A stretch of 40,591 nt of DNA from Pseudomonadota bacterium (GTDB taxonomy: Bacteria; Verrucomicrobiota; Verrucomicrobiia; Chthoniobacterales; UBA6821). The notes under the pieces were generated by a model that did no database searches, had not been told where the DNA came from, and saw only the letters and a program-made list of their open reading frames with translations. The DNA lies in assembly GCA_009928265.1 (NCBI GenBank), contig RFPR01000001.1, positions 1-40,591 of the forward strand. Direction: 5' to 3'. A program made the translations under genes and the position numbers. This document shows positions 12,410 through 31,111 of the stretch, one piece after another; positions within the stretch are counted from its first letter, which is position 1, and each line of letters starts with the position of its first letter.

Positions 12410-12494
12410 GCCGGCGTGGCGGAATTGGCAGACGCGCCGGACTCAAAATCCGGTGAGGCAACTCGTGTCGGTTCGAACCCGACCGCCGGTACCA
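12410..12494 (+). tRNA. tRNA-Leu (anticodon CAA), long variable arm, encoded CCA
   Basis: Cloverleaf read by eye. Acceptor GCCGGCG/CGCCGGT, anticodon stem CCGGA/TCCGG with loop CTCAAAA, variable arm GAG-gcaa-CTC, T arm GTCGG-TTCGAAC-CCGAC, 3' ACCA. Confidence 0.9.
12439..12492 (+). repeat. attL: tRNA 3' portion repeated at the far island end (16-nt plus 28-nt identical blocks)
   Basis: GGACTCAAAATCCGGT (12439-12454) and GTGTCGGTTCGAACCCGACCGCCGGTAC (12465-12492) recur exactly at 31055-31070 and 31084-31111. Confidence 0.85.
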
Positions 12495-14693: not shown

Positions 14694-14808
14694 GCCTCCA
14701 AAAAAAGGAGTGCCGGGGGACATGGATTCTGGGGCTAGCAAGCCAGCCACCGCGTCCTTCGACCCCGACACCCCAATAATTTTCGTGTGGAGCAATGAGA
14801 AAGTCAAG

Positions 14809-14891
14809 TTTTGCCTCCGTGCAGGCAAAACCCTGCCGGGCAACTTGGTGCCTCGGCAGACTCCCTCCGGCGGAATGAGGTGACAACCTCC
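14809..14891 (+). repeat. ~85-nt multi-hairpin element, copy C
   Basis: TTTTGCC-TCCGTGCA-GGCAAAA, then CTGCCG...CGGCAG, then CTCCGGCGGAATGAGG-tgacaa-CCTC. Aligns with 20628-20713 and 28679-28761. Confidence 0.7.
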
Positions 14892-14923
14892 TAAGCACCC
14901 CCATTGTCGATGGGGGTGCTCCC

Positions 14924-16890: not shown

Positions 16891-17159
16891 TGTCTCCTTT
16901 TAGCTACCTAAAGTGTCTCCTTCTGGATCCTTTCTACTCCCTCGAAAACACCCTACTTACTACCTAGTTAATACCTGTTGTATCTTACTTACTACCTACT
17001 TACTACCTATCTAATACCTACTGGATCCTAAAATCCGATATTGTATCTATCTTTCTACCTACTGTCTCCTTTTGTATCCTTTTTGATCTATTTTTCTCTC
17101 ATGGCTCCTATTGTCTCTAATTTTCTCTAATCTTCCTATAATAGATACGAATTGTATCT
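16891..17159. repeat. G-poor iteron-like array of short direct repeats
   Basis: TGTCTCCTT x3 (16891, 16914, 17063). CTTACTACCTA x3 (16956, 16988, 16999) plus variants. TTGTATCT x3 plus a variant (16978, 17041, 17152; 17072). TAATACCT x2. CTGGATCCT x2. Confidence 0.7.
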
Positions 17160-19907: not shown

Positions 19908-20591
19908 ATGTCCTACCGAGAACGATTCCTAGCTCTGTGCTCCCGTGACGAACGGGACGAGGCTGATCGTATGTGCGGGGGGTTATCCAATAACGATAAC
20001 AGCCCGCTATTCTGGGCTCTCCTGCAGATAAAACAACTCCCCTCGGCAATCGCTAAAGTCCTCGGCGACAATGTCGAAGCAATGCGGGAAATCAACCAGG
20101 GCAAGAAGGTCGCCCTCCTGCAGATCATCGCCTCACGGCTCTTCGCCGCAGTCATCCACGCAATCCTCGTCCTTGCTCTAGCACTCGGGGCGTTCGTGAT
20201 CATCACCAAAAAGCAGGAAGCTAGGCTGGGCACACTCGTCGAAAATAGCCGATCTCTCCTGCAGACCCAGAAGCAGCTAGCTGCAGATATGGCTACCTAC
20301 AAGGATGACCAAAGCGAACTCGGGCAAGGCGTGAAAACCATGTCAACACAGGTAAACTCCGCAGCAAAAGCAGCTAAAGATGAAATTCTCGCAGCCCGAG
20401 ATGCCTCCCTGAAAGACATCGAAAAGGGAGCCCAAGACTACAGAACCATCGCCAACCTTCTCAAATACTCGGGAGCCGGCGTCACCATCAACAGTCAGGG
20501 CGAACTCGTGCTCAAAACCTATAAATGGGGATACGAAATCGTGGATGACCCCACCCAAAACGGTGCCGTCACCATAATCCTCCACAAATGA
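19908..20591 (+). CDS. hypothetical membrane / coiled-coil protein
   Basis: 227 aa. One TM helix (LFAAVIHAILVLALALGAFVII), then a helical Gln/Lys/Ala-rich segment. Confidence 0.6.
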   Translation: MSYRERFLALCSRDERDEADRMCGGLSNNDNSPLFWALLQIKQLPSAIAKVLGDNVEAMREINQGKKVALLQIIASRLFAAVIHAILVLALALGAFVIITKKQEARLGTLVENSRSLLQTQKQLAADMATYKDDQSELGQGVKTMSTQVNSAAKAAKDEILAARDASLKDIEKGAQDYRTIANLLKYSGAGVTINSQGELVLKTYKWGYEIVDDPTQNGAVTIILHK

Positions 20592-20627
20592 CCAACCATG
20601 CTTCCTGCAGCTAAAGCCCACCCCAAA

Positions 20628-20713
20628 ATTTCGCTCCGTGCAGCGAAATCAGCCGCCGGAGCCGCTCGAGGCAACGGCAGGCTTCCCTCCGGCGGATGGA
20701 AGCAACGCCTTCC
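20628..20713 (+). repeat. ~85-nt multi-hairpin element, copy D
   Basis: ATTTCGC-TCCGTGCA-GCGAAAT, GCCG...CGGC, CTTCC-CTCCGGCGGAT-GGAAG-caacgc-CTTCC. Confidence 0.7.
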
Positions 20714-20851
20714 TGCACCCCTTTTAATCTCATGAAAACACCCAAGAAATCTCCACGGGTAGGACACTCTGTGTCTCCCAAACCTGCTAAGAAGAAGCTG
20801 CCAAATAAGCTCCCCAACCCCCCCAAAACAGCACACTCTCGTCATACACCT

Positions 20852-22633
20852 ATGCCTGAAGATTCCGCTCCCACCAAGATCAACTATGTCTCCCTTGTCT
20901 GGAGTATCGCAGAAATTCTGCGAGGTGACTTCAAGGCTCACCAGTACGGAGCAATCATCCTACCTTTCCTCGTGCTTCGTCGCTTGGAGTGCGTTCTCGA
21001 ACCTTCGCGGGCAAAGGTTCTCGATGCGTTGGCTTCCGTGCCAAAAGGTGCCGATGAGACAATTCGGGAGAAGCTCCTAAACCGTGCCTCCGGACATAAG
21101 TTCTCCAACACCAGCAAGTGGACCTTGGAGAAGATCAAGGGTGACCAAGCCCATCTCCTTGCCAACCTGAATGCCTATGTGAACGGCTTCTCGGCAAATG
21201 TACGGGATGTCCTCATCGACAAGTTCAAGTTCCCAACCCTTCTCGAAGCTCTGGACAAGGCGGATCTCCTCTACTCCCTAGTCGACAAGTTCGCCCAGGT
21301 GGATCTCCACCCAGACAGGGTCTCCAATATGGAGATGGGTTCCATCTTCGAGGAGCTCATCCGACGATTCGCTGAAGTCAGCAATGAAACGGCTGGAGAG
21401 CACTTCACCCCGAGGGATGTCGTGGAGCTTCTGGTCGATGTTCTCTTCATCTTCGACTCGGAAGTCCTCACCAAGAAGGGAGTTGTCCGTTCGATCTACG
21501 ATCCCACCGCAGGCACCGGGGGAATTCTCTCCGTCGCCCAAGAGGCTCTTCGCAAGCTCAACCCGGACGCTCAGCTAGTCCTCTTCGGACAAGAACTCAA
21601 CCCTGAATCCTACGCCATCTGTAAGAGCGATCTCATGATCAAGGGGCAGGATCCCGACAACATCGGCTTCGGAAACACCCTCAACGACGACAAGCACGAA
21701 GACCTTCAAGTCGACTACATGGGGGCAAACCCTCCGTATGGCGTGGACTGGGGAAAGATCAAGGATGACATCGAGGACGAACACGAGAAGCTCGGAATGA
21801 CTGGACGATTCGGTCCAGGTCTTCCTCGCGTCTCCGACGGTTCCCTTCTCTTCGTCCTGCAGATGATTTCCAAAATGAAGGACCCTGCCAAGGGCGAGGG
21901 GTCAAGGATCGCAGTAGTCTTGAGCGGATCCCCGCTCTTCACGGGCGGTGCAGGATCAGGAGAGTCGGAAATCCGCAGATACATCCTCGAGAATGACCTG
22001 CTGGAGACCATCATCGCTCTCCCCAGCTCCCTCTTCTACAACACCGGAATTGGCACCTACATTTGGGTCCTCTCCAACAAGAAGACCAAGGAACGCAAGG
22101 GCAAGGTGCAGCTCATCAACGCTGCAGAGATGTTTATCCCTATGAGAAAGAGCCTCGGGGACAAACGCAGGGAGATGACACCAGAACACCGCAAGGAAAT
22201 CCTCCGACTCATGGGTGAGTTCGACGAGTCACCCATCTCGAAAATCTTCAACTCAACCGATTTCGGCTACCGCCGAATCACTGTTGAACGCCCCTTGCTC
22301 GATGAGAAAGGTAAACCAGTCATCGGCACCAAGGGGAAGATGAAGGGCAAGCCCCTTCCCAATGCCGACTTGCGAGACACCGAGAATGTCCCCCTCACGG
22401 AATCGGTCGAGGAGTACTTCAAGCGTGAGGTCCTCCCTCATGTCCCCGATGCCTACATCGACAGCGAGAAGCGTGATGAACGGGACGGCGAGGCCGGGGT
22501 GGTTGGCTACGAGATCAACTTCAACCGCTATTTCTACCAGTTCACTCCTCCTAGAAAACTCGAAGATGTCCGAAAGGATGTCCGGGCGAAGGAACAAGCC
22601 ATCCTCAAACTCTTGGAGGACATCGGAGCATGA
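20852..22633 (+). CDS. hsdM: type I restriction-modification DNA methyltransferase subunit M
   Basis: HsdM N-domain (LVWSIAEILRGDFKAHQYGAIILPFLVLRRLE), SAM motif DPTAGTGGIL, catalytic GANPPYG. ATG 20852 preferred. Upstream in-frame ATGs at 20696 and 20732 would add a Lys/Pro-rich tail and overlap repeat copy D. Confidence 0.9.
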   Translation: MPEDSAPTKINYVSLVWSIAEILRGDFKAHQYGAIILPFLVLRRLECVLEPSRAKVLDALASVPKGADETIREKLLNRASGHKFSNTSKWTLEKIKGDQAHLLANLNAYVNGFSANVRDVLIDKFKFPTLLEALDKADLLYSLVDKFAQVDLHPDRVSNMEMGSIFEELIRRFAEVSNETAGEHFTPRDVVELLVDVLFIFDSEVLTKKGVVRSIYDPTAGTGGILSVAQEALRKLNPDAQLVLFGQELNPESYAICKSDLMIKGQDPDNIGFGNTLNDDKHEDLQVDYMGANPPYGVDWGKIKDDIEDEHEKLGMTGRFGPGLPRVSDGSLLFVLQMISKMKDPAKGEGSRIAVVLSGSPLFTGGAGSGESEIRRYILENDLLETIIALPSSLFYNTGIGTYIWVLSNKKTKERKGKVQLINAAEMFIPMRKSLGDKRREMTPEHRKEILRLMGEFDESPISKIFNSTDFGYRRITVERPLLDEKGKPVIGTKGKMKGKPLPNADLRDTENVPLTESVEEYFKREVLPHVPDAYIDSEKRDERDGEAGVVGYEINFNRYFYQFTPPRKLEDVRKDVRAKEQAILKLLEDIGA

Positions 22634-23901
22634 GCAGGGAGTTCAAGCCATACCCCAAGTACAAGGACTCGGGGGTAGAGTGGCTCGGGCAGGTTCCGGA
22701 AGGATGGGAGGTAACACCTCTCAAAAGAGCTGTCAGGCAAAGTGCCGATAAGTCAACTGACGGGTCCCTTCAGTACCTAGGGCTGGAAAATATCCTGCCA
22801 TGGACAGGCGTTATCACTACCGACTCTGATGCCAAATATTCAGACGACAGCTTGGGAATCGAGTTCCTAGAGGGAGATGTGCTCTTTGGGAAACTTCGCC
22901 CATACCTTGCGAAGGTAGCTCTGCCCTCATTTAACGGGCGATGCACCTCTGAGCTTTTGGTGCTTCGCCCAGAAAAACTAGATGGGAAATACCTCCGCTA
23001 TTTCCTCTCAACTCCTGGATTCATCGACCGGGTCAACTCAACGACATTCGGGGCACAAATGCCCCGAGCAAATTGGGAATCCATCGGGGGGTTACACACT
23101 CTGATTCCGGAGGATAAAGGCAAAGCCATTGCATCCTTCCTCGATCAGCAAACTTCGCAGATCGACGAGGTGATCAAAGCTACGGAGGAATCCATCGCTC
23201 TCCTACAGGAAGAGCGGAAAAGCATCATCTCCCATGCAGTCACCAAGGGACTAGATCCCAAGGTCAAACTCAAGGACTCGGGTATCGAGTGGCTCGGACA
23301 GATTCCGGAGCACTGGGAGGCCAAGAAGACAAGTTGGTATTTTACTGCTAAGAAGGGGAAGAACGCGGCACAGCTTACCAAGGAATACTGTGCAACGATT
23401 AGTGGGGACTACCCCGTCTACAGCGGGCAGACTGAAAATAACGGAGTGATGAGCAGCATCACCGAATACGAATTTGATGCGGGAGAGGACGGATGCCTCT
23501 TCTCCACAACGGTAGGCAGCCAAAAGGTCATGACCGTGATGCACATTAAGGGCAGATTCAGCCTATCACAGAACTGCATGATTATGCTCCCTACACAACG
23601 GGCTATTAATGTCAGGTACGCATTCTATCACTTTCAGCCTTTGTTTGAGTACGAGAAGAGCTTCATCCCATCCCACATGCAGGCTTCATTCCGTATGGAA
23701 GACTTCTACCAATACAGGTTAGCCCTTCCTCCTCTCGCAGAGCAGGAAGCCATCTCCTCCTACCTAGACGAGAAGACTAAGCGGATCGACTCACTCATCG
23801 CTGAAAAGGGGTCGCTCATCGAATCCCTCAGGGAGTATCGCAGCAGTCTGATCTTCGAAGCGGTAACCGGAAAAATCGACCTTCGGGAGGAAGCTGCATG
23901 A
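22630..23901 (+). CDS. hsdS: type I R-M specificity subunit S (two target-recognition domains)
   Basis: Duplicated YKDSGVEWLGQVPEGWE / LKDSGIEWLGQIPEHWE half-starts. Conserved helical spacers LQEERKSIISHAVTKGLD and LREYRSSLIFEAVTGKIDL. ATGA overlap with hsdM. Confidence 0.9.
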   Translation: MSREFKPYPKYKDSGVEWLGQVPEGWEVTPLKRAVRQSADKSTDGSLQYLGLENILPWTGVITTDSDAKYSDDSLGIEFLEGDVLFGKLRPYLAKVALPSFNGRCTSELLVLRPEKLDGKYLRYFLSTPGFIDRVNSTTFGAQMPRANWESIGGLHTLIPEDKGKAIASFLDQQTSQIDEVIKATEESIALLQEERKSIISHAVTKGLDPKVKLKDSGIEWLGQIPEHWEAKKTSWYFTAKKGKNAAQLTKEYCATISGDYPVYSGQTENNGVMSSITEYEFDAGEDGCLFSTTVGSQKVMTVMHIKGRFSLSQNCMIMLPTQRAINVRYAFYHFQPLFEYEKSFIPSHMQASFRMEDFYQYRLALPPLAEQEAISSYLDEKTKRIDSLIAEKGSLIESLREYRSSLIFEAVTGKIDLREEAA

Positions 23902-23941: not shown

Positions 23942-26900
23942 ATGAGCACGCCAATTCACAAAGAGAAAAAGTTCGAGGAGGAGATCGAAGCAGTCCTCCT
24001 CAGCCGCAAGGGTGGTTACCTGCAGGGAAATCCCAAGAACTTCGATCCACGGCTCGGCTTTGATTGCACCGAACTGTTCACCTTCCTGAAAGGGACGCAG
24101 CCGAAGGAGTGGGCGAAGCTTGAGAAGAGCTACGGCGGCGAAGTGGAAGCCAAGGTTTCCTCCTACCTCCGCAGTGAGATCAACCGCAAGGGAACCATCG
24201 AAGTACTTCGTCAGGGCATCGTCGACCGGGGAGCCAAGCTCACTCTTGCCTTCATGCCTCCTTCCTCAGGTCTCAATCCTGTAGTGATCGAACAGTACAA
24301 AAGCAACAGGCTCACAATCACTCGGCAGGTTCCTTGCACAGTCGGGTCGAAGGAAACCATCGACACCGTTCTCATGGTCAACGGCATCCCAGTCGTTACC
24401 GTTGAACTCAAGACTCCGCTCACCGGACAAACCGTCACCAACGCAGTCTTTCAGTACAAAGACAGGGACCCCAATTCCCCCATCTTCGGCTTCAAGTCGG
24501 GTGCACTTGTGCACATGGCTGTCGATCCGGATGAGGTGATGATGACCACCAAGCTCGACAAGAAAGGGACTCGCTTCCTCCCATTCAACAAAGGCGACAA
24601 GGGAGGGAAGGGGAATCCTGAAAACCCCAAGGGCTACAAAACAGCGTACCTCTGGGAAGAGGTTCTGCAAAGGGATAGCCTCATGGACATCCTTGCCAAG
24701 TTCGTTCAGTCACAGACTGAGACGAAGCGTCTGCCCAACGGCTCCAAGGTCAAAGTCGAGAAGCTACTCTTCCCTAGGTATCACCAACTCGATTGCGTCC
24801 GTAAGTGCGCATCGCACGCTGCAGAGCACGGAGCAGGTCAAACCTACCTCATCCAGCACTCGGCAGGTTCGGGGAAGACCAATTCCATTGCCTGGCTCGC
24901 CCATAGGCTCACCACTCTCCACAACGCGAAGGACGAAACAGTCTTCGACAGCGTCATCGTTGTTACCGATCGAATCGTCCTCGATGACCAGCTGCAGGAC
25001 GCCATCGCCCAATTCGAGCACAAGCACGGAGTGGTTGAAGCCATCAAGGGAAGCGAGGGCTCCAAGAGTGCGAAGCTCGCTGAAGCCCTTACTGGCGGGA
25101 AGAAGATCATCATCGTCACCATTCAGTCCTTCGGGTTTGTCCTTGAGCAGATCGGATCCATCCCTAACCGCAGGTATGCCGTTATCGTGGACGAAGCCCA
25201 CTCCTCGCAGACCGGAGAGTCGGCTACAAAGATGCGACAGGCACTTGGATCCTCGGATGAAGACCTAGCTGCTGCAGCTAAGGAGCAGGAGGAAGAGGAC
25301 AAGAAGGCTGAAGCCAAGGACGATGAAACGGACGCAGCCGTCCTCAAAGTTCTCAAGGCTCGCAAGCGTCAGCCCAACATGAGTTTCTTCGGCTTCACGG
25401 CTACGCCCAAAGCCAAAACCCTCGAATACTTCGGCACAGTTGGTAAGGACAGAAAGCCTCACCCGTTTCACCTGTACTCCATGCGACAGGCGATTGAGGA
25501 AGGATTCATCCTCGATGTCCTGAAGAACTACACCACCTACGAAACCTACTGGCGTCTCGCCTCTTCCAATTCAGTAGATCCGGAAGTCGAGAAGAAGAAA
25601 GCTTCACGAGCGGCTGTTCGCTATGTGCAGCTCCACCCCTACAACATCGCTCAGAAGGTCGAGATCATCCTAGAGCACTATGTGAACTTCACCTCCAAGC
25701 AGATCGGAGGGAAGGCGAAGGCGATGGTTGTTACCAGCAGTCGCAAAGCTGCAGTCAGGTACAAAGAGGCATTCGACAAGATCCTCGTCAAAAAGAAGAT
25801 CAAAGGTGTCAAAGCCATCGTTGCCTTCTCCGGGGAAGTCCAAGACGAGGGGAAGAGTCACACCGAGCAGAGCATGAACGGCTTCTCCGGTCGTCAGATC
25901 CCAGAGAAGTTCGAGTCGGATGAGTACCAAGTCCTCCTGGTTGCCGACAAATTCCAAACAGGCTTCGATCAGCCTTATCTGCACACTCTCTTTGTCGACA
26001 AGCGCCTCGACGGCGTTCAGGCGGTGCAGACCCTCTCCCGGGTCAATCGTACCTGCCCCCTTAAGGAAGACACCTTCGTTTTGGACTTCGTCAACAACGC
26101 CGACGACATCAAGAAAGCCTTCCTGCCGTACTACCAGGCAACGGAAGTCTCGGAAGTCACCGATCCCAATGTGCTCTATCGGCTCAAGGATCAGATCATG
26201 GATCGAGGTATCATCAACAAGGATGACATCGAGGGGGTTGCCAAGATCGCCTTCAAACCTGCAGGAGAAGCCGGGGCAAACGACCAAGGCAAGATTCATG
26301 CCCTCATCGACCCAGCAGTTACTCGTTACAAAGAGAAGCTGGATGAATCTGAGCAACGCGAGTTCGCCGGCGATCTCCAATCCTTCCTTCGCACCTACGC
26401 ATTCCTCGCTCAGCTCATCGACTTTGAAGATACGGACCTTGAAAAACTCTACGCCTACGGGAAGTTCCTCGCTCGAAAACTCCCAAGGACCCAAGGACGC
26501 AACCTCACCCTCGACGATGAAGTTCGGCTTACCTTCTACCGCACCCAGAAGGTGTTTGAAGGTAGCCTCTCCCTTGGAGCAACAGACGCCGGGACCGTAA
26601 AAGGTATCGGTGATGCTCCCAAGAAAGGCGGTGCTGGTGGAACGGTCGTTCGCCTCTCCACCATTATCGATGTCCTCAACCAACGATTCGGTGCTGACCT
26701 CTCCCAAGAAGACCAGCTCCTCTTCGATGCCATCGAGGGGGACATGGCGAGAGACCATGAACTCCGTACCCAAGCTCTCAACAACGATCTGAAAAACTTC
26801 GCCTTCCCAGCCAAGGAGAAGATCAGCGGTGCATTCCTAGAACGGACCGAGAAAAACCAAGGGCTATTCACTCGCTACCTCGCAGATGAGGCCTTCCGCA

Positions 26901-26980
26901 ATGTGATCGAGCAAGTAATGGCTCAATCCCTCTATGACCGCCTCCGCAGAGAAGCCGGGGAAGCTGAGAAGATCGCATGA
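23942..26980 (+). CDS. hsdR: type I restriction endonuclease subunit R
   Basis: 1012 aa. N-terminal nuclease-type region, helicase motif I QHSAGSGKT, motif II VIVDEAHSSQ, later SF2 motifs (FGFTATP, LLVADKFQTGFDQP, RVNR). Confidence 0.9.
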   Translation: MSTPIHKEKKFEEEIEAVLLSRKGGYLQGNPKNFDPRLGFDCTELFTFLKGTQPKEWAKLEKSYGGEVEAKVSSYLRSEINRKGTIEVLRQGIVDRGAKLTLAFMPPSSGLNPVVIEQYKSNRLTITRQVPCTVGSKETIDTVLMVNGIPVVTVELKTPLTGQTVTNAVFQYKDRDPNSPIFGFKSGALVHMAVDPDEVMMTTKLDKKGTRFLPFNKGDKGGKGNPENPKGYKTAYLWEEVLQRDSLMDILAKFVQSQTETKRLPNGSKVKVEKLLFPRYHQLDCVRKCASHAAEHGAGQTYLIQHSAGSGKTNSIAWLAHRLTTLHNAKDETVFDSVIVVTDRIVLDDQLQDAIAQFEHKHGVVEAIKGSEGSKSAKLAEALTGGKKIIIVTIQSFGFVLEQIGSIPNRRYAVIVDEAHSSQTGESATKMRQALGSSDEDLAAAAKEQEEEDKKAEAKDDETDAAVLKVLKARKRQPNMSFFGFTATPKAKTLEYFGTVGKDRKPHPFHLYSMRQAIEEGFILDVLKNYTTYETYWRLASSNSVDPEVEKKKASRAAVRYVQLHPYNIAQKVEIILEHYVNFTSKQIGGKAKAMVVTSSRKAAVRYKEAFDKILVKKKIKGVKAIVAFSGEVQDEGKSHTEQSMNGFSGRQIPEKFESDEYQVLLVADKFQTGFDQPYLHTLFVDKRLDGVQAVQTLSRVNRTCPLKEDTFVLDFVNNADDIKKAFLPYYQATEVSEVTDPNVLYRLKDQIMDRGIINKDDIEGVAKIAFKPAGEAGANDQGKIHALIDPAVTRYKEKLDESEQREFAGDLQSFLRTYAFLAQLIDFEDTDLEKLYAYGKFLARKLPRTQGRNLTLDDEVRLTFYRTQKVFEGSLSLGATDAGTVKGIGDAPKKGGAGGTVVRLSTIIDVLNQRFGADLSQEDQLLFDAIEGDMARDHELRTQALNNDLKNFAFPAKEKISGAFLERTEKNQGLFTRYLADEAFRNVIEQVMAQSLYDRLRREAGEAEKIA

Positions 26981-27717
26981 ACATTTCACTGCTATGCGAT
27001 GAGCTTTGGGATAATGCCCAGCCTCTGATGTCGGAGGCTTGGGGGAGCATGGATCCACAGCATCCAGGACATGACCCGGGAGAAGCTGCACGCCGAGAAT
27101 TTAGGGGTGCCCAGATCAACGAACGCTTACTGGTGCTACTCAAAGAGGAGGGGGACGATCTCCCAGAGGGAGTTCGCCTCATAACCAATATCTCCAACTC
27201 TGCAGAAGAGATCACAAAGGCACTACAAGCCGAAGAATACGAAGGTTGGAACAGAACTCTTAACTCGCCCACGCAGTTCCAAGATCAACAGCACAAGCTG
27301 CATCTATGGGCTGAAAACAACTACACACCTCTAGAGGGATCCGATGTTACTCCCAGAAATCTCGCGGGGATCCTCGGGTTGAACAAAGGAAGCCTCAACT
27401 ATCTGCAGGTAGATGGGGGAACTGCTTCGCTTTTCGCCATTGCTTCAAAAAGGACAGGTGTCACGACAGGTCAGTTTGTCCACGACACAAACCTAGAAGC
27501 CCTCCTGAAATCATTCAGAATCGAGGTTCTTCGGAGGGATGTCATATCGGCGAATACGGTCACCAATGCGGCAATAGATGCTCTCTGGGGTAATGTCGTC
27601 GAAACCAGATACACCGACCAGATTGATGCTATGGAGCGACAGATAAGAACCAAGGAGAGGGAGATCGCCGAAATCAAAGAGCGGATCTCCCTTGTGAAAG
27701 CCCTGAAAAAATCATGA
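26977..27717 (+). CDS. hypothetical protein translationally coupled to hsdR (246 aa, C-terminal coiled coil)
   Basis: ATGA overlap with the hsdR stop at 26977-26980. No recognisable motif. Confidence 0.65.
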   Translation: MNISLLCDELWDNAQPLMSEAWGSMDPQHPGHDPGEAARREFRGAQINERLLVLLKEEGDDLPEGVRLITNISNSAEEITKALQAEEYEGWNRTLNSPTQFQDQQHKLHLWAENNYTPLEGSDVTPRNLAGILGLNKGSLNYLQVDGGTASLFAIASKRTGVTTGQFVHDTNLEALLKSFRIEVLRRDVISANTVTNAAIDALWGNVVETRYTDQIDAMERQIRTKEREIAEIKERISLVKALKKS

Positions 27718-27917
27718 AGGAAGTCCTGAACTCTCGGTGGTTCCACTGCCTCTACCTCGGAATGCTCAGCTTGGGCACGATCACTCTGGTTTGTATGAAC
27801 ATCGTTCACGAAGCTTCTTTCCCTGTCTGGGTTGCATCCGCCGCAATATGGGTTGCACCATGCTACCTCGCTTATTGTGCAGTGCGATTCCTCCGCAGTA
27901 ATAAGGCAGAAGGGTAA
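27714..27917 (+). CDS. small two-TM membrane protein (67 aa) coupled to the preceding gene
   Basis: ATGA overlap at 27714-27717. Two hydrophobic helices (LYLGMLSLGTITLVCMNIV; VWVASAAIWVAPCYLAYCAV). Confidence 0.55.
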   Translation: MKEVLNSRWFHCLYLGMLSLGTITLVCMNIVHEASFPVWVASAAIWVAPCYLAYCAVRFLRSNKAEG

Positions 27918-27989: not shown

Positions 27990-28451
27990 TTAGACTGCAG
28001 GGACGGGCAGGTCGGAGTTGATGTATTTCTCGTAGCCGTATTTATCAACGCCCTCTGGACGGGGTAGAGCATACCTCCGCTTGTACTCATCGTTAGGTCC
28101 GAAAAAGTACATCGCTCCATCAATCTCTACAGATAAGCAAATCTGACCGAACTCGATTGCGAGGCTATTCGCCATGCGGTTGATGTTCCACTTGTGTTCA
28201 TCGAGTTTTTCCTCCGAACAAAAGGATTTGCAGATGGTCACCTTCTCGGCATGAACAATCCCTGCTTCGTGGAAGTAACCAGCTCCCTCCGTCATTGTCG
28301 CTCCGCCCAACTCCAGCAGAAGGAATTTCATCGTTGCGTCAATAAGCTTGGCACGATCGACATGCCCGAGGTCTTCCCCCTTACCTGTTTTCGAGGGAAG
28401 GTAGAAGGCAACGTAGTGATCCATCTCCTTTTTGGGTTTCCAATAAGCCAT
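27990..28451 (-). CDS. hypothetical protein (about 153 aa)
   Basis: The ORF opens at 28487. The internal ATG at 28451 (MAYWKPKKEM...) is preferred because the upstream part runs into repeat-rich DNA. No motif recognised. Confidence 0.55.
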   Translation of the reverse strand: MAYWKPKKEMDHYVAFYLPSKTGKGEDLGHVDRAKLIDATMKFLLLELGGATMTEGAGYFHEAGIVHAEKVTICKSFCSEEKLDEHKWNINRMANSLAIEFGQICLSVEIDGAMYFFGPNDEYKRRYALPRPEGVDKYGYEKYINSDLPVPAV

Positions 28452-28678
28452 GCCACGGAGCGTAGGACATGAAACTGCAGGGATCAATCCCGCAGGCGTC
28501 GGCTATTCCCTCCTTCCCAAACCCTGTCGGGAGCAGCCTCCACATCACCGCAGGGGGCACCAAGGACTCGCTAGGTTTCCTCACTTCCTCCTGCAGTCAC
28601 CGGCTCTCGCCTTCGTGCTGTCGTCCCTCCGACGAGCTATTTCCCCTTAACGGTGCCCATTCTCGGGACTATCTGCAG

Positions 28679-28761
28679 GTTTGCCTCCGTGCAGGCAAAC
28701 CTATTGCCGCCTTGCTTGCCAAGTGCGGCAAACATCCCCCCGGCGGGATGGAGGCAACTCC
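28679..28761 (+). repeat. ~85-nt multi-hairpin element, copy E
   Basis: GTTTGCC-TCCGTGCA-GGCAAAC, TTGCCGC-CTTG...CAAG-GCGGCAA, CATCC-CCCCGGCG-GGATG, GGAG-gcaa-CTCC. Confidence 0.7.
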
Positions 28762-28816
28762 GTTGATTCCTGAACTCTTCCTTCCCTAGGAAGGGTTCAC
28801 CCCTCCCTACCTGATC

Positions 28817-29543: not shown

Positions 29544-29738
29544 CTAGGTGCGTCTCTTACTAGGAATAAGGAGCAGAGGCAGGTTCACGACCGCCACAAC
29601 CGCAGTCCAAATCAGCACAGCAGCTACACCAATGATCCCAGCGGCTATCTGGATCAGCCCAATCAGGAAATTGACCACTCCCTTCAGGAGCCAAGTCACC
29701 AAGAACACGCCCAATAGAAGTTCAATGGCAAGGCTCAT
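29544..29738 (-). CDS. small two-TM hydrophobic protein (64 aa) coupled to the integrase gene
   Basis: Start overlaps the integrase stop (ATGA on the minus strand). Almost entirely hydrophobic, with a basic C-terminus SKRRT. Confidence 0.45.
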   Translation of the reverse strand: MSLAIELLLGVFLVTWLLKGVVNFLIGLIQIAAGIIGVAAVLIWTAVVAVVNLPLLLIPSKRRT

Positions 29739-30985
29739 AGGGTTCCTTCCGGTGCATCGTCGGGTAGGGGATCCTTATCACACAGGCTCTCCACATAGGC
29801 GGGAAGCAGTCTCCAGAACTCCGCACAATCCTCCTCGGTGACGGCGTCGACATAGTTGCTCCTCACTACGGAAGGGCTATTTCCCATCTCGTAGCTGGTC
29901 AGTCCTTCATCTTTCTTCCATGCCAGATGATACGACCCATAGAGGTGTCTCAGGGCATTTTGAGGCCAGGGGGTAATCCCTGCAGCATGGGCAATGGTCT
30001 TCATCTCAGCATACCAAGCAGCGGGGCGGTTGGCTCTCTCTGGTCTTGCTGAGAAGACCAGCTCGTCCTTCTTGCCTTTCTTGCAGAGCAGCAACCATCC
30101 CTTCAGCGGCGGAGTAATGGTGATACTTCGACGGCGTCCGGTTTTGGAAAATCCTGCCTGGACGATGATCGTCGAGCCAACATCGCCCCATGGGATCTTG
30201 AACAGTTCCTCGTTGCGAATGCCTGAGAAGGCCTTCATCGCCAAGCTCGCCAACATCTTCGGAGCAATCTGCTGGGTCGTCCAAAGCAACGAAGCCACCT
30301 GCTCAGGGGTGAAGATGACCTTTTGCGATGCAACCTTGCGGGGAGCCTTTATCCCATCGAGCGGGTTCTCCTTGATCCAACGCTGAGCAACTGCGTCGTT
30401 GAACAGGATGTTCAGATACCTCCTCCGCTTCGCCCGCTGGGAAGGGGATGGGTTGTTTCCCCTCCCATCCTTGGCAGAGAGGATCTGCAGGATCCGATCT
30501 CGGTCGAAGTCGCCAATGGACTCCTTCTCCATACCGTCGAAGTAGAAATCGTACTTCTCCGCCATGTCCTTGAGGTGCCTAGCTCCGCAGCCTTCCGTCT
30601 TTTTCAAATCCAAAAGCTTCTCCACGGCATCCTCTACGCTTGGAGCCTTGGATGATGGTCTACGCTCCAGCCAGAAATCCACAACCTCCCGGAGCGGGGT
30701 AGGGGAGATTCTCGCCAAAGCAACTCGGATCTCAGCCATGTCCAAGGTCGACACCCCCAGCTCCTTCGCCTTTTCGAGCTCGCCTGCAGTCTTTTTCTTG
30801 AGTTCGGCAATGTAGCTCAATGCCTTCTCGTGCGAGGAAAAAAACTTCCGGATGATTTCACGCCCGGTGAATTTCTTCCCCACACGAACGACCCAGCGGT
30901 TACGATCTTTGCGGAGGGATACCCCGTGCGGTAGCTTGGGCTCCTTGGGTTTTTGGGGGCGTTTCATGCCCCAATCCAAGGCCAT
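29735..30985 (-). CDS. int: tyrosine site-specific integrase
   Basis: SAM-like N-domain. Catalytic-domain landmarks FSGIRNEEL (Arg), ALRHLYGSY (His-x-x-Arg region), GNSPSVVRSNY (Tyr). Adjacent to attR. Alternative ATG at 30967. Confidence 0.85.
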   Translation of the reverse strand: MALDWGMKRPQKPKEPKLPHGVSLRKDRNRWVVRVGKKFTGREIIRKFFSSHEKALSYIAELKKKTAGELEKAKELGVSTLDMAEIRVALARISPTPLREVVDFWLERRPSSKAPSVEDAVEKLLDLKKTEGCGARHLKDMAEKYDFYFDGMEKESIGDFDRDRILQILSAKDGRGNNPSPSQRAKRRRYLNILFNDAVAQRWIKENPLDGIKAPRKVASQKVIFTPEQVASLLWTTQQIAPKMLASLAMKAFSGIRNEELFKIPWGDVGSTIIVQAGFSKTGRRRSITITPPLKGWLLLCKKGKKDELVFSARPERANRPAAWYAEMKTIAHAAGITPWPQNALRHLYGSYHLAWKKDEGLTSYEMGNSPSVVRSNYVDAVTEEDCAEFWRLLPAYVESLCDKDPLPDDAPEGTL

Positions 30986-31054: not shown

Positions 31055-31111
31055 GGACTCAAAATCCGGTATCCTCTAAAGATGTGTCGGTTCGAACCCG
31101 ACCGCCGGTAC
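31055..31111 (+). repeat. attR: partial tRNA-Leu copy (anticodon loop to acceptor 3' strand) with a different variable arm
   Basis: 16-nt and 28-nt blocks identical to the tRNA, separated by ATCCTCTAAAGAT instead of GAGGCAACTC. No 5' half, no CCA. Confidence 0.85.

What the first reader, a model, noticed from the sequence alone, without database searches (positions are those of the whole stretch)
26977..27917. Two unknown genes translationally coupled to hsdR: a candidate accessory module of the type I R-M operon
A 246-aa protein (no recognisable motif, C-terminal coiled coil) starts at the ATGA that ends hsdR. A 67-aa two-TM protein starts at the ATGA that ends the 246-aa gene. Such tight coupling implies co-expression and fixed stoichiometry with the restriction subunit. 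Type I R-M loci are known to host embedded defence or abortive-infection partners; the PrrC anticodon nuclease in the EcoprrI locus is the classic case. A soluble sensor-like protein plus a small membrane protein is a common effector layout in defence systems. The whole hsdMSR-plus-two block is also bracketed by repeat copies D and E.
Basis: partly seen in the sequence, partly recalled or inferred. Interest (0 to 1): 0.65.

Follow-up and report, generated by a model that had tools for sequence, protein, structure and literature searches.

The report
Unknown gene family riding behind restriction genes
The 246-aa gene fused to the end of hsdR is real and belongs to a very rare, uncharacterised protein family that repeatedly sits just behind restriction-enzyme genes, so it is a credible new restriction-linked accessory; the 67-aa membrane ORF after it has no relatives and is not a conserved partner.

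Summary
The coordinates and both ATGA overlaps are correct. hsdM/S/R are a bona fide type I R-M operon.

**orf246 (26977-27717)** is a real gene.
- It has about 20 relatives among ~15 billion proteins, all from metagenomes.
- dN/dS is 0.22 overall and 0.07 in the core.
- AlphaFold gives a confident model (pLDDT 89): two alpha/beta domains plus a ~50-residue C-terminal helix.
- It has no significant match in Pfam, NCBIfam, PHROGs, PADLOC, PDB or BFVD. PARP WGR domains recur as weak fold hits only.

**Synteny.** Relatives at 26-30% identity also lie directly 3' of hsdR, as hsdR-YgjP-X or hsdR-TM protein-X. An 84%-identical copy lies behind a type IIG/PglX-like enzyme, and DNA homology to the window covers exactly the ORF. 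Three other lineages show no R-M gene in the short flanks available.

**Downstream gene.** It differs in every lineage, yet is ATGA-coupled in four of them.

**orf67** has no homologue anywhere. Its coding signal is intermediate, so it is only a plausible gene.

**Setting.** The block sits in an 18.6-kb island integrated at tRNA-Leu. It is flanked by two of three copies of a ~100-nt structured repeat.

**Verdict.** The R-M accessory idea is supported for orf246. A fixed two-gene module is not. The mechanism is unknown.

The parts
20771..22633 (+). hsdM, type I methyltransferase. The longest ORF starts at 20696; gene callers start at 20771 or 20852.
   Evidence: Pfam N6_Mtase 1.6e-57 and HsdM_N 1.7e-25. 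PADLOC MTase_I 4.9e-252. Called genes in L002/L003.
22630..23901 (+). hsdS, specificity subunit. It overlaps the hsdM stop by 4 nt.
   Evidence: Pfam Methylase_S. PADLOC Specificity_I 4.7e-100. Internal 50-nt repeat 22662-22711 / 23271-23320.
23942..26980 (+). hsdR, restriction/translocase subunit, 1012 aa.
   Evidence: Pfam HSDR_N, ResIII, SWI2_SNF2 and T1R_D3-like. PADLOC REase_I 6.6e-41.
26977..27717 (+). orf246 ('X'). Member of a rare uncharacterised family with two alpha/beta domains and a C-terminal coiled-coil helix (197-245). Its start overlaps the hsdR stop (ATGA).
   Evidence: Family. dN/dS 0.22. AF2 pLDDT 89.1. No known family. Synteny with R-M genes.
27714..27917 (+). orf67. An orphan 67-aa ORF with one clear and one probable TM segment. 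Its start overlaps the orf246 stop (ATGA). Gene status is plausible but unproven.
   Evidence: No homologue. Codon score +0.07: best of six frames, above every wrong-frame window, below 98% of true-gene windows. Hydropathy.
20619..20722 (+). Copy 2 of a ~100-nt two-hairpin repeat, in the hsdM leader. It bounds the block on the left.
   Evidence: cmsearch 103.7 bits. Not in Rfam.
28670..28779 (+). Copy 3 of the same repeat, upstream of the resolvase gene. It bounds the block on the right.
   Evidence: 96.7 bits.
12410..12494 (+). tRNA-Leu(CAA). Its 3' end is the left attachment repeat of the island that carries the whole block.
   Evidence: ARAGORN. Rfam tRNA. Repeat 12465-12492.
31084..31111 (+). 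Exact 28-nt direct repeat of the tRNA-Leu 3' end: the right end of the 18.6-kb island.
   Evidence: D4. BLAST extends it to ~55 nt at 83%. GC drops to 0.42-0.55 inside against ~0.58 outside.
29735..30985 (-). Integrase-like gene next to the right island end.
   Evidence: Weak Pfam Phage_integrase hit, 2e-4, plus its position beside the att repeat.

Best explanation
orf246 is a genuine gene for a new, very rare protein family. It has two alpha/beta domains and a C-terminal coiled coil, so it is probably an oligomer. It acts as an accessory of restriction systems.

It travels as a single-gene unit that lodges at the 3' end of restriction-subunit genes. These are type I hsdR in several lineages and a type IIG/PglX-like enzyme in one. 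It is usually translationally coupled to a variable, lineage-specific downstream gene.

My preferred mechanism is this. X is the conserved sensor or adaptor, made together with the restriction subunit. It monitors either the state of the restriction enzyme or the DNA damage that accompanies infection. It then passes the signal to the swappable downstream protein. In this window that protein would be the 67-aa putative membrane protein, which would arrest or kill the cell. This is an abortive-infection back-up in the logic of PrrC with EcoprrI.

Shown: the gene is real; the family exists; the fold is novel; linkage to R-M genes recurs; the downstream partner varies and is ATGA-coupled; the block lies on a tRNA-Leu island.

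Inferred: any interaction with HsdR, the sensor role, the effector role of orf67, and any defence phenotype.
For: Real gene:
- 14 representatives at E<=1e-3 among 1.84 billion representative proteins (one of the 14 is spurious), plus further cluster members.
- Conserved motifs W..EP.YPGHDPG, YEGW, Y.PL.GSD.T and RTGVTTG.F.YD.
- dN/dS 0.22 overall and 0.07 for codons 100-200.
- Confident AF2 model: pLDDT 89.1, pTM 0.77.

Linkage to R-M:
- Window: hsdR-X overlap.
- L005: hsdM, hsdM-S, hsdR, 185-aa TM protein, X.
- L007/L008 and L010-L012: hsdR, YgjP-like, X.
- L001/L030: 1390-aa N6_Mtase/Eco57I/PglX-like enzyme, then X.
- The hsdR proteins of these loci share only 22-28% identity. The link therefore spans deep divergence and two R-M types.

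Single-gene mobility: window-L001 DNA similarity (84.5%) covers exactly ATG to TGA of X and nothing else.

Variable coupled partner: the X stop overlaps the next ATG in the window, L001, L005 and L023, with four unrelated downstream genes.

Precedent: genes nested in or attached to type I R-M loci are often defence genes. Examples are PrrC, TgvAB and the 145 'guilt-by-embedding' candidates (PMC12707154, PMC11411939, bioRxiv 10.1101/2024.01.29.577857).
Against: - No catalytic, sensor or toxin domain is detectable in X or in any partner.
- X is appended after hsdR rather than nested between hsd genes, so 'guilt by embedding' applies only loosely.
- Three lineages (L024, L031, L009) show X without an R-M gene in the short upstream flanks available.
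- orf67 is an orphan with an intermediate coding score.
- The informative lineages are few (about seven), and some may share ancestry of the linkage.
- All members come from uncultured organisms. There is no phenotype and no expression data.
Confidence: 0.4

Rival explanations
1. X belongs to an autonomous small defence or conflict system, X plus variable partners, seen elsewhere as X-Y(~250 aa)-Z(~200 aa). It lands near R-M genes only because defence genes cluster in islands and the 3' ends of R-M operons tolerate insertions. It has no functional link with HsdR.
For: - X occurs with conserved Y and Z partners and without nearby R-M genes in L024/L025. It sits beside ankyrin and small ORFs in L031.
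- X moved as a single ORF between a type I and a type IIG context. That argues against dependence on one enzyme.
- The loci are rich in other conflict-type genes: cpYpsA, DnaJ, ankyrin, a Kinase-PolyVal fragment.
Against: - Direct, same-strand, first-or-second-gene position after the R subunit recurs in four lineages whose hsdR proteins are only 22-28% identical.
- General island clustering does not predict that precise position.
- The overlap with the hsdR stop codon in the window makes X expression depend on hsdR translation.
Confidence: 0.28
2. X modulates restriction rather than defending. It would be a restriction-alleviation, assembly or anti-restriction-like factor. It would temper the R subunit while the mobile island establishes itself in a new, unmethylated host.
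For: - X is acidic: pI about 5 in most members, and the N-terminal domain of the window protein is 4.4.
- It is encoded immediately after R subunits of two different R-M types.
- The block is on an integrative island that must survive entry into naive hosts.
- The coiled coil suggests a protein-binding scaffold.
Against: - No similarity to ArdA, Ocr, KlcA/ArdB or any PADLOC, Pfam or PHROGs family.
- No relatives in phage, plasmid or IMG/VR collections, where anti-restriction genes abound.
- Net charge is modest compared with DNA mimics, and some members are basic, up to pI 9.1.
- This does not explain the variable coupled downstream genes.
Confidence: 0.14
3. Only orf246 is a gene. orf67 is a chance ORF in a ~270-nt spacer between convergent genes, so there is no two-gene module in this window.
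For: - Zero homologues in 5.8 billion clusters. The same DNA is seen only in identical copies of this contig.
- Its codon score is lower than 98% of equal-length windows from true genes.
- ORFs of 60-70 codons are common in wrong frames here.
- Only one segment passes the usual hydropathy threshold.
Against: - Its own frame scores best of six and above every wrong-frame window. Membrane proteins often score low against models trained on soluble genes.
- The ATGA overlap mirrors the coupled partners of X in L001, L005 and L023.
- Two uncharged hydrophobic stretches with positively charged ends fit a helical hairpin.
- There is no convincing terminator between X and orf67.
Confidence: 0.4
4. orf246 is ordinary mobile-element cargo with a non-defence role, for example in element maintenance. 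Its adjacency to R-M genes is coincidental.
For: - The block lies in a tRNA-Leu island with integrase-like, resolvase and ParA-like genes.
- The function is wholly unknown.
Against: - Recurrent placement right after restriction genes in at least three independent settings. The per-gene chance of this is of order 1e-3 (my estimate, not computed).
- No hit to any mobility family.
Confidence: 0.08

Closest known systems
PrrC anticodon nuclease in the EcoprrI type IC locus (and RloC)
   Same: An accessory gene co-transcribed with hsd genes. It is proposed, and for PrrC shown, to act as a back-up when restriction is blocked (PMC12707154). This is the logic I favour for X.
   Different: PrrC is nested between hsd genes. 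It has an ABC-ATPase-like N-domain and a C-terminal nuclease. X is appended after hsdR, has no P-loop, and matches no PADLOC or Pfam model. Its fold has no significant match.
'Guilt-by-embedding' candidates (HEC/PDC) and TgvAB in Vibrio cholerae VPI-2
   Same: Uncharacterised genes physically attached to type I R-M, BREX or DISARM operons. Several have proved to be defence systems.
   Different: X matches none of the PADLOC v2.0.0 models. It is not GmrSD-like. It is appended rather than embedded. Its family is far rarer and absent from plasmid and phage records; one motif-pattern scan of representative genomes also found none.
YgjP-like / SprT-like metallopeptidase (PF01863), a frequent neighbour of hsdR (the linkage is from my own recollection of the defence-island literature; not verified here)
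   Same: It occupies the slot immediately 3' of hsdR. In L007/L008 and L010-L012, X follows it directly.
   Different: X has no PF01863 hit and no HExxH motif. It is a separate gene that co-occurs with YgjP rather than replacing it.
WGR domain of PARP1/PARP2 (DNA-break-binding)
   Same: It is the only recurring structural resemblance. Foldseek aligns ~100 residues with TM-score 0.36-0.43 normalised to the WGR chain. A viral PARP-like protein also appears in the BFVD list.
   Different: E-values are 0.4-2 and probabilities about 0.3, which is not significant. No Pfam WGR hit appears in any of 19 members even at E<=10. X is acidic. This is a lead, not a classification.

Membership tests
R-M-linked accessory gene (operon-level association with restriction genes) | Same strand and immediately adjacent to, or overlapping, the restriction subunit gene | tested here: met
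   ATGA overlap at 26977-26980.
R-M-linked accessory gene (operon-level association with restriction genes) | Adjacency conserved in diverged homologues and other genomes | tested here: met
   Met in L005, L007/L008, L010-L012 (type I) and L001/L030 (type IIG-like). Not seen in the short flanks of L024, L031 and L009.
R-M-linked accessory gene (operon-level association with restriction genes) | Measurable effect on restriction, defence or viability | not testable with these tools
   Needs cloning and phage or plasmid challenge.
PrrC/RloC anticodon nucleases | ABC-ATPase-like N-domain (P-loop) plus C-terminal nuclease domain; match to PADLOC or Pfam models | tested here: not met
   No PADLOC or Pfam hit. 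No Walker A motif in the sequence.
WGR domain (PF05406) | Match to the Pfam profile | tested here: not met
   No WGR hit in any of 19 members at E<=10.
WGR domain (PF05406) | Fold-level match to solved WGR domains | tested here: inconclusive
   Foldseek E 0.4-2, probability 0.2-0.35, TM 0.36-0.43 on the WGR chain.
Anti-restriction DNA mimics (ArdA, Ocr) and ArdB/KlcA | Profile match; strongly acidic surface; carried by phages or plasmids | tested here: not met
   No Pfam or PHROGs hit. pI 5.1 here, but up to 9.1 in the family. No relatives in plasmid, phage or IMG/VR collections.
Small membrane effector or holin-like toxin (for orf67) | Two transmembrane helices | tested here: inconclusive
   Residues 13-31 are clear (KD 1.84). 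Residues 36-57 are uncharged but below the 1.6 threshold. Sub-threshold DUF202 hit, E 0.017.
Small membrane effector or holin-like toxin (for orf67) | Conserved partner of the upstream gene, or a homologous family | tested here: not met
   No homologue. The partners of X elsewhere are unrelated.
Type I R-M system (hsdMSR) | HsdM, HsdS and HsdR with their signature domains in one operon | tested here: met

The most novel reading that the evidence does not exclude
The X family defines a new class of restriction 'guardian'. It would be a novel-fold, coiled-coil oligomer that docks genetically, and perhaps physically, onto restriction subunits of different R-M types. It would couple them to interchangeable downstream effectors. 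In this window the effector would be a minimal 67-aa membrane protein. Failed or blocked restriction would then be converted into abortive infection.
Probability: 0.2. Interest if true: 0.72.

Novelty: new variant of a known kind. Interest (0 to 1): 0.5.

Why it matters
Accessory genes attached to R-M operons have repeatedly turned out to be second-line defences, as with PrrC and TgvAB and the embedded candidates. More than half of such genes remain unexplained.

Here a protein family with no known domain and no significant fold match keeps a precise position behind restriction subunits across deep divergence and across two R-M types. It also swaps its coupled downstream gene.

If it senses restriction failure or DNA damage, it would add a new sensor fold and a modular sensor-effector layout to the R-M guardian concept. 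If it modulates HsdR, it would bear on how mobile R-M islands establish in new hosts.

Its extreme rarity and its restriction to uncultured bacteria limit its immediate impact.

Tried and rejected
1. A first AF2 run with a 3-sequence alignment gave pLDDT 42 and was discarded. The 19-sequence alignment gave pLDDT 89.

2. Foldseek against PDB and BFVD found nothing at E<0.1.

3. P0013, a 3597-aa protein with 16 matched stretches, proved to be a NACHT-ankyrin repeat protein. It is a repeat-summed artefact, not a fusion of X.

4. An internal-duplication test of the two X domains by hhalign was negative.

   - A hand-made RTGVTTG...YD pattern found only chance hits in genome contigs.
   - In metagenome contigs it found only a second copy of the L001 element.
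   - The pattern covers only part of the family, so this is weak evidence of absence.

6. No relatives turned up in plasmid, phage or IMG/VR collections.

7. The Y, Z and other partner proteins were scanned against Pfam, PADLOC, NCBIfam, PHROGs and PDB. Nothing was significant apart from a sigma-70-like 206-aa protein in L005.

8. No homologue of any partner protein exists elsewhere in the window.

9. No intrinsic terminator after orf67 stands out.

10. The window's taxon could not be identified. The cluster look-up returned no organism names.

11. A literature check of the YgjP-hsdR linkage found nothing usable.
Full report
**1. Observation**

The ORF list and raw sequence confirm the layout.
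- hsdR runs 23942-26980.
- A 246-codon ORF runs 26977-27717. Its ATG overlaps the hsdR TGA as ATGA.
- A 67-codon ORF runs 27714-27917 and overlaps the 246-aa gene in the same way.

The upstream genes are an unambiguous type I system.
- HsdM: N6_Mtase 1.6e-57, PADLOC MTase_I 4.9e-252.
- HsdS: PADLOC Specificity_I 4.7e-100.
- HsdR: HSDR_N, ResIII, SWI2_SNF2 and T1R_D3-like, REase_I 6.6e-41.

**2. orf246 is a real gene of a very rare, unannotated family**

A word-indexed search of 5.8 billion clusters found only the protein itself and two relatives at ~84% identity.

An exhaustive HMMER search of 1.84 billion representatives found 14 proteins at E<=1e-3. One of them, P0013, is a NACHT-ankyrin repeat protein. 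It is an artefact of summing repeat matches.

A profile search added six more members.

The alignments show conserved motifs: W..EP.YPGHDPG, YEGW, Y.PL.GSD.T and RTGVTTG.F.YD. A heptad-patterned C-terminus follows.

Against the L001 copy, dN/dS is 0.22 overall and 0.07 for codons 100-200.

Structure prediction depended on alignment depth.
- With three sequences AlphaFold failed (pLDDT 42).
- With 19 sequences it gave pLDDT 89.1 and pTM 0.77.
- The model has an N-terminal sheet-plus-helix domain, a second alpha/beta domain, and a single helix over 197-245.

No library recognises the family. I searched Pfam (all 19 members at E<=10), PADLOC, NCBIfam, PHROGs and PDB sequence profiles.

Foldseek found nothing at E<0.1 in PDB or BFVD. 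The only recurring resemblance is to PARP1/2 WGR domains (probability ~0.3, TM 0.36-0.43 on the WGR chain). That is a lead, not a classification.

Most members are acidic, with pI about 5.

There are no relatives in plasmid, phage or IMG/VR collections. A motif-pattern scan of 185,579 representative genomes also found none. That pattern covers only part of the family.

**3. Where the family sits**

This is the key result.

| Locus (member) | Layout |
|---|---|
| L005/L006 (P0020) | hsdM, hsdM-S fusion, hsdR, 185-aa multi-TM protein, X, then 131 aa, a sigma-70-like 206 aa, and 258 aa |
| L007/L008 (P0015) and L010-L012 (P0018) | hsdR (the cut ORFs carry T1R_D3-like and T1RH-like_C), a YgjP-like/SprT-like metallopeptidase, X, then conserved ~250-aa and ~200-aa proteins |
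| L001/L030 (P0003, 84% nt identity to the window) | X lies 130 nt after a 1390-aa N6_Mtase/MmeI_Mtase/Eco57I/PglX-like enzyme |

The DNA similarity between the window and L001 spans exactly the ORF, from ATG to TGA, and nothing beyond it. So the gene has been relocated as a single unit between a type I and a type IIG-like context.

The hsdR proteins of the window, L005 and L007 share only 22-28% identity.

There are counter-examples.
- L024/L025 (P0007): unrelated divergent genes lie upstream, with a 252-aa and a 192-aa gene downstream.
- L031 (P0011): X follows an ankyrin gene and a 118-aa ORF.
- L009 (P0005): X follows a Kinase-PolyVal fragment.
- The flanks available in these cases are only 0.6-3.6 kb.

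Three further contigs (P0002, P0021, P0022) have long cut ORFs upstream that could not be identified, because no DNA could be fetched.

By my rough estimate, which I did not compute, a gene has about a 1e-3 chance of being the first or second gene after a restriction subunit. Seeing this in at least three independent settings out of about seven is therefore far from chance.

**4. The downstream partner is variable**

orf67 has no homologue at all.

The gene after X differs between lineages.
- L001: 84 aa, soluble.
- L005: 131 aa.
- L023: a cut ORF of 107+ aa.
- Elsewhere: ~250 aa followed by ~200 aa.

None of these resemble each other or orf67. The one exception is that the L001 84-aa protein matches the N-terminus of the 192-aa protein of L024 (phmmer 2e-5 in a small database).

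Even so, the X stop overlaps the next start codon as ATGA in the window, L001, L005 and L023. A conserved gene coupled to a swappable gene is the layout of many sensor-effector defence systems. That point comes from general knowledge.

orf67 itself remains uncertain.
- Its codon score is the best of six frames and above all wrong-frame windows. It is also below 98% of true-gene windows.
- One hydrophobic segment is clear and a second is probable.
- A sub-threshold DUF202 hit (E 0.017) is the only similarity found.

**5. Setting**

Positions 1-11.9 kb and beyond ~33 kb are chromosomal housekeeping genes of a diderm bacterium: PqiAB, FtsK, MiaB, MlaEFD and polysaccharide export. GC there is about 0.58.

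A tRNA-Leu(CAA) lies at 12410-12494. The last 28 nt of it are repeated exactly at 31084-31111. An integrase-like gene sits beside the right repeat, and GC inside is lower. The R-M block therefore lies in an 18.6-kb integrated island, which also carries ParA-like and resolvase genes.

A third copy is at 14800-14900.
- It folds into two hairpins with compensatory changes.
- It is not in Rfam.
- It was not found in the other X loci.

**6. Interpretation**

What is shown:
- a real gene with a novel fold;
- recurrent 3' linkage to restriction subunits;
- single-gene mobility;
- a variable coupled partner;
- location on an island.

What is inferred: the function.

I rank the readings as follows.
1. 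An R-M-linked accessory in which X is the conserved sensor or adaptor and the downstream gene is the effector (about 0.4).
2. An autonomous small conflict system that merely clusters with R-M genes (about 0.28).
3. A modulator of restriction that helps the island establish in a new host (about 0.14).
4. Unrelated cargo (about 0.08).

Independently of these, there is roughly a 0.4 chance that orf67 is not a functional gene.

**7. Comparison with known systems**

The logic is closest to PrrC with EcoprrI, and to the embedded candidates of Payne et al. and TgvAB. X fails every membership test for those families.

It is best described as a new protein family filling a known genomic niche.

**8. 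Verdict**

Interest is moderate at 0.5. The synteny is clean and the fold is confidently predicted and unmatched, which makes a testable candidate. Against that, there is no mechanistic handle, and the family is extremely rare and known only from metagenomes.

Noticed in passing
window 12410-12494 and 31084-31111 (island about 12.46-31.11 kb): tRNA-Leu(CAA) whose last 28 nt are repeated exactly 18.6 kb downstream, beside an integrase-like gene (29735-30985, minus strand). GC is lower inside. This is an integrated genomic island carrying ParA-like, hsdMSR, orf246/orf67 and resolvase genes.
   Followed up: partly
window 14800-14900, 20619-20722, 28670-28779 (+ strand): Three copies of a ~100-nt element with two hairpins that keep pairing through compensatory changes (for example TTTGCC/GGCAAA against TTTCGC/GCGAAA). 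It is not in Rfam. Copies 2 and 3 sit upstream of hsdM and the resolvase gene. It may be a shared regulatory leader or a recombination site.
   Followed up: partly
window 16952-17030: A cluster of short direct repeats (CCTACTTACTACCTA...) in an AT-rich stretch upstream of the 222-aa and ParA-like genes. It looks like iterons or a partition site.
   Followed up: no
window 27990-28487 (- strand): The 165-aa ORF convergent with orf67 matches phrog_3543 (unknown function, E 2.3e-8). It is the only phage-family hit near the finding.
   Followed up: no
L001 6159-6413 and L024 5245-5823: The 84-aa protein coupled to X in L001 is homologous to the N-terminal ~70 residues of the 192-aa third gene of the X-Y-Z array in L024. 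This is a second small domain that travels with the X family.
   Followed up: partly
L007 5865-10189: The X locus in L007 is followed by ankyrin, DnaJ-domain and cpYpsA (SLOG-type) genes, an apparent conflict or defence island.
   Followed up: no
orf246 residues 27-35 (window about 27055-27081): The most conserved N-terminal motif (EP.YPGHDPG) falls in the only low-confidence loop of the AF2 model (pLDDT <50 at 29-33). A conserved but unstructured His-Asp loop is unexplained. It could be a binding or catalytic site.
   Followed up: no
window 19908-20591: The 227-aa membrane ORF just upstream of hsdM has a weak ZorA/MotA-like PADLOC hit (E 0.0012).
   Followed up: no
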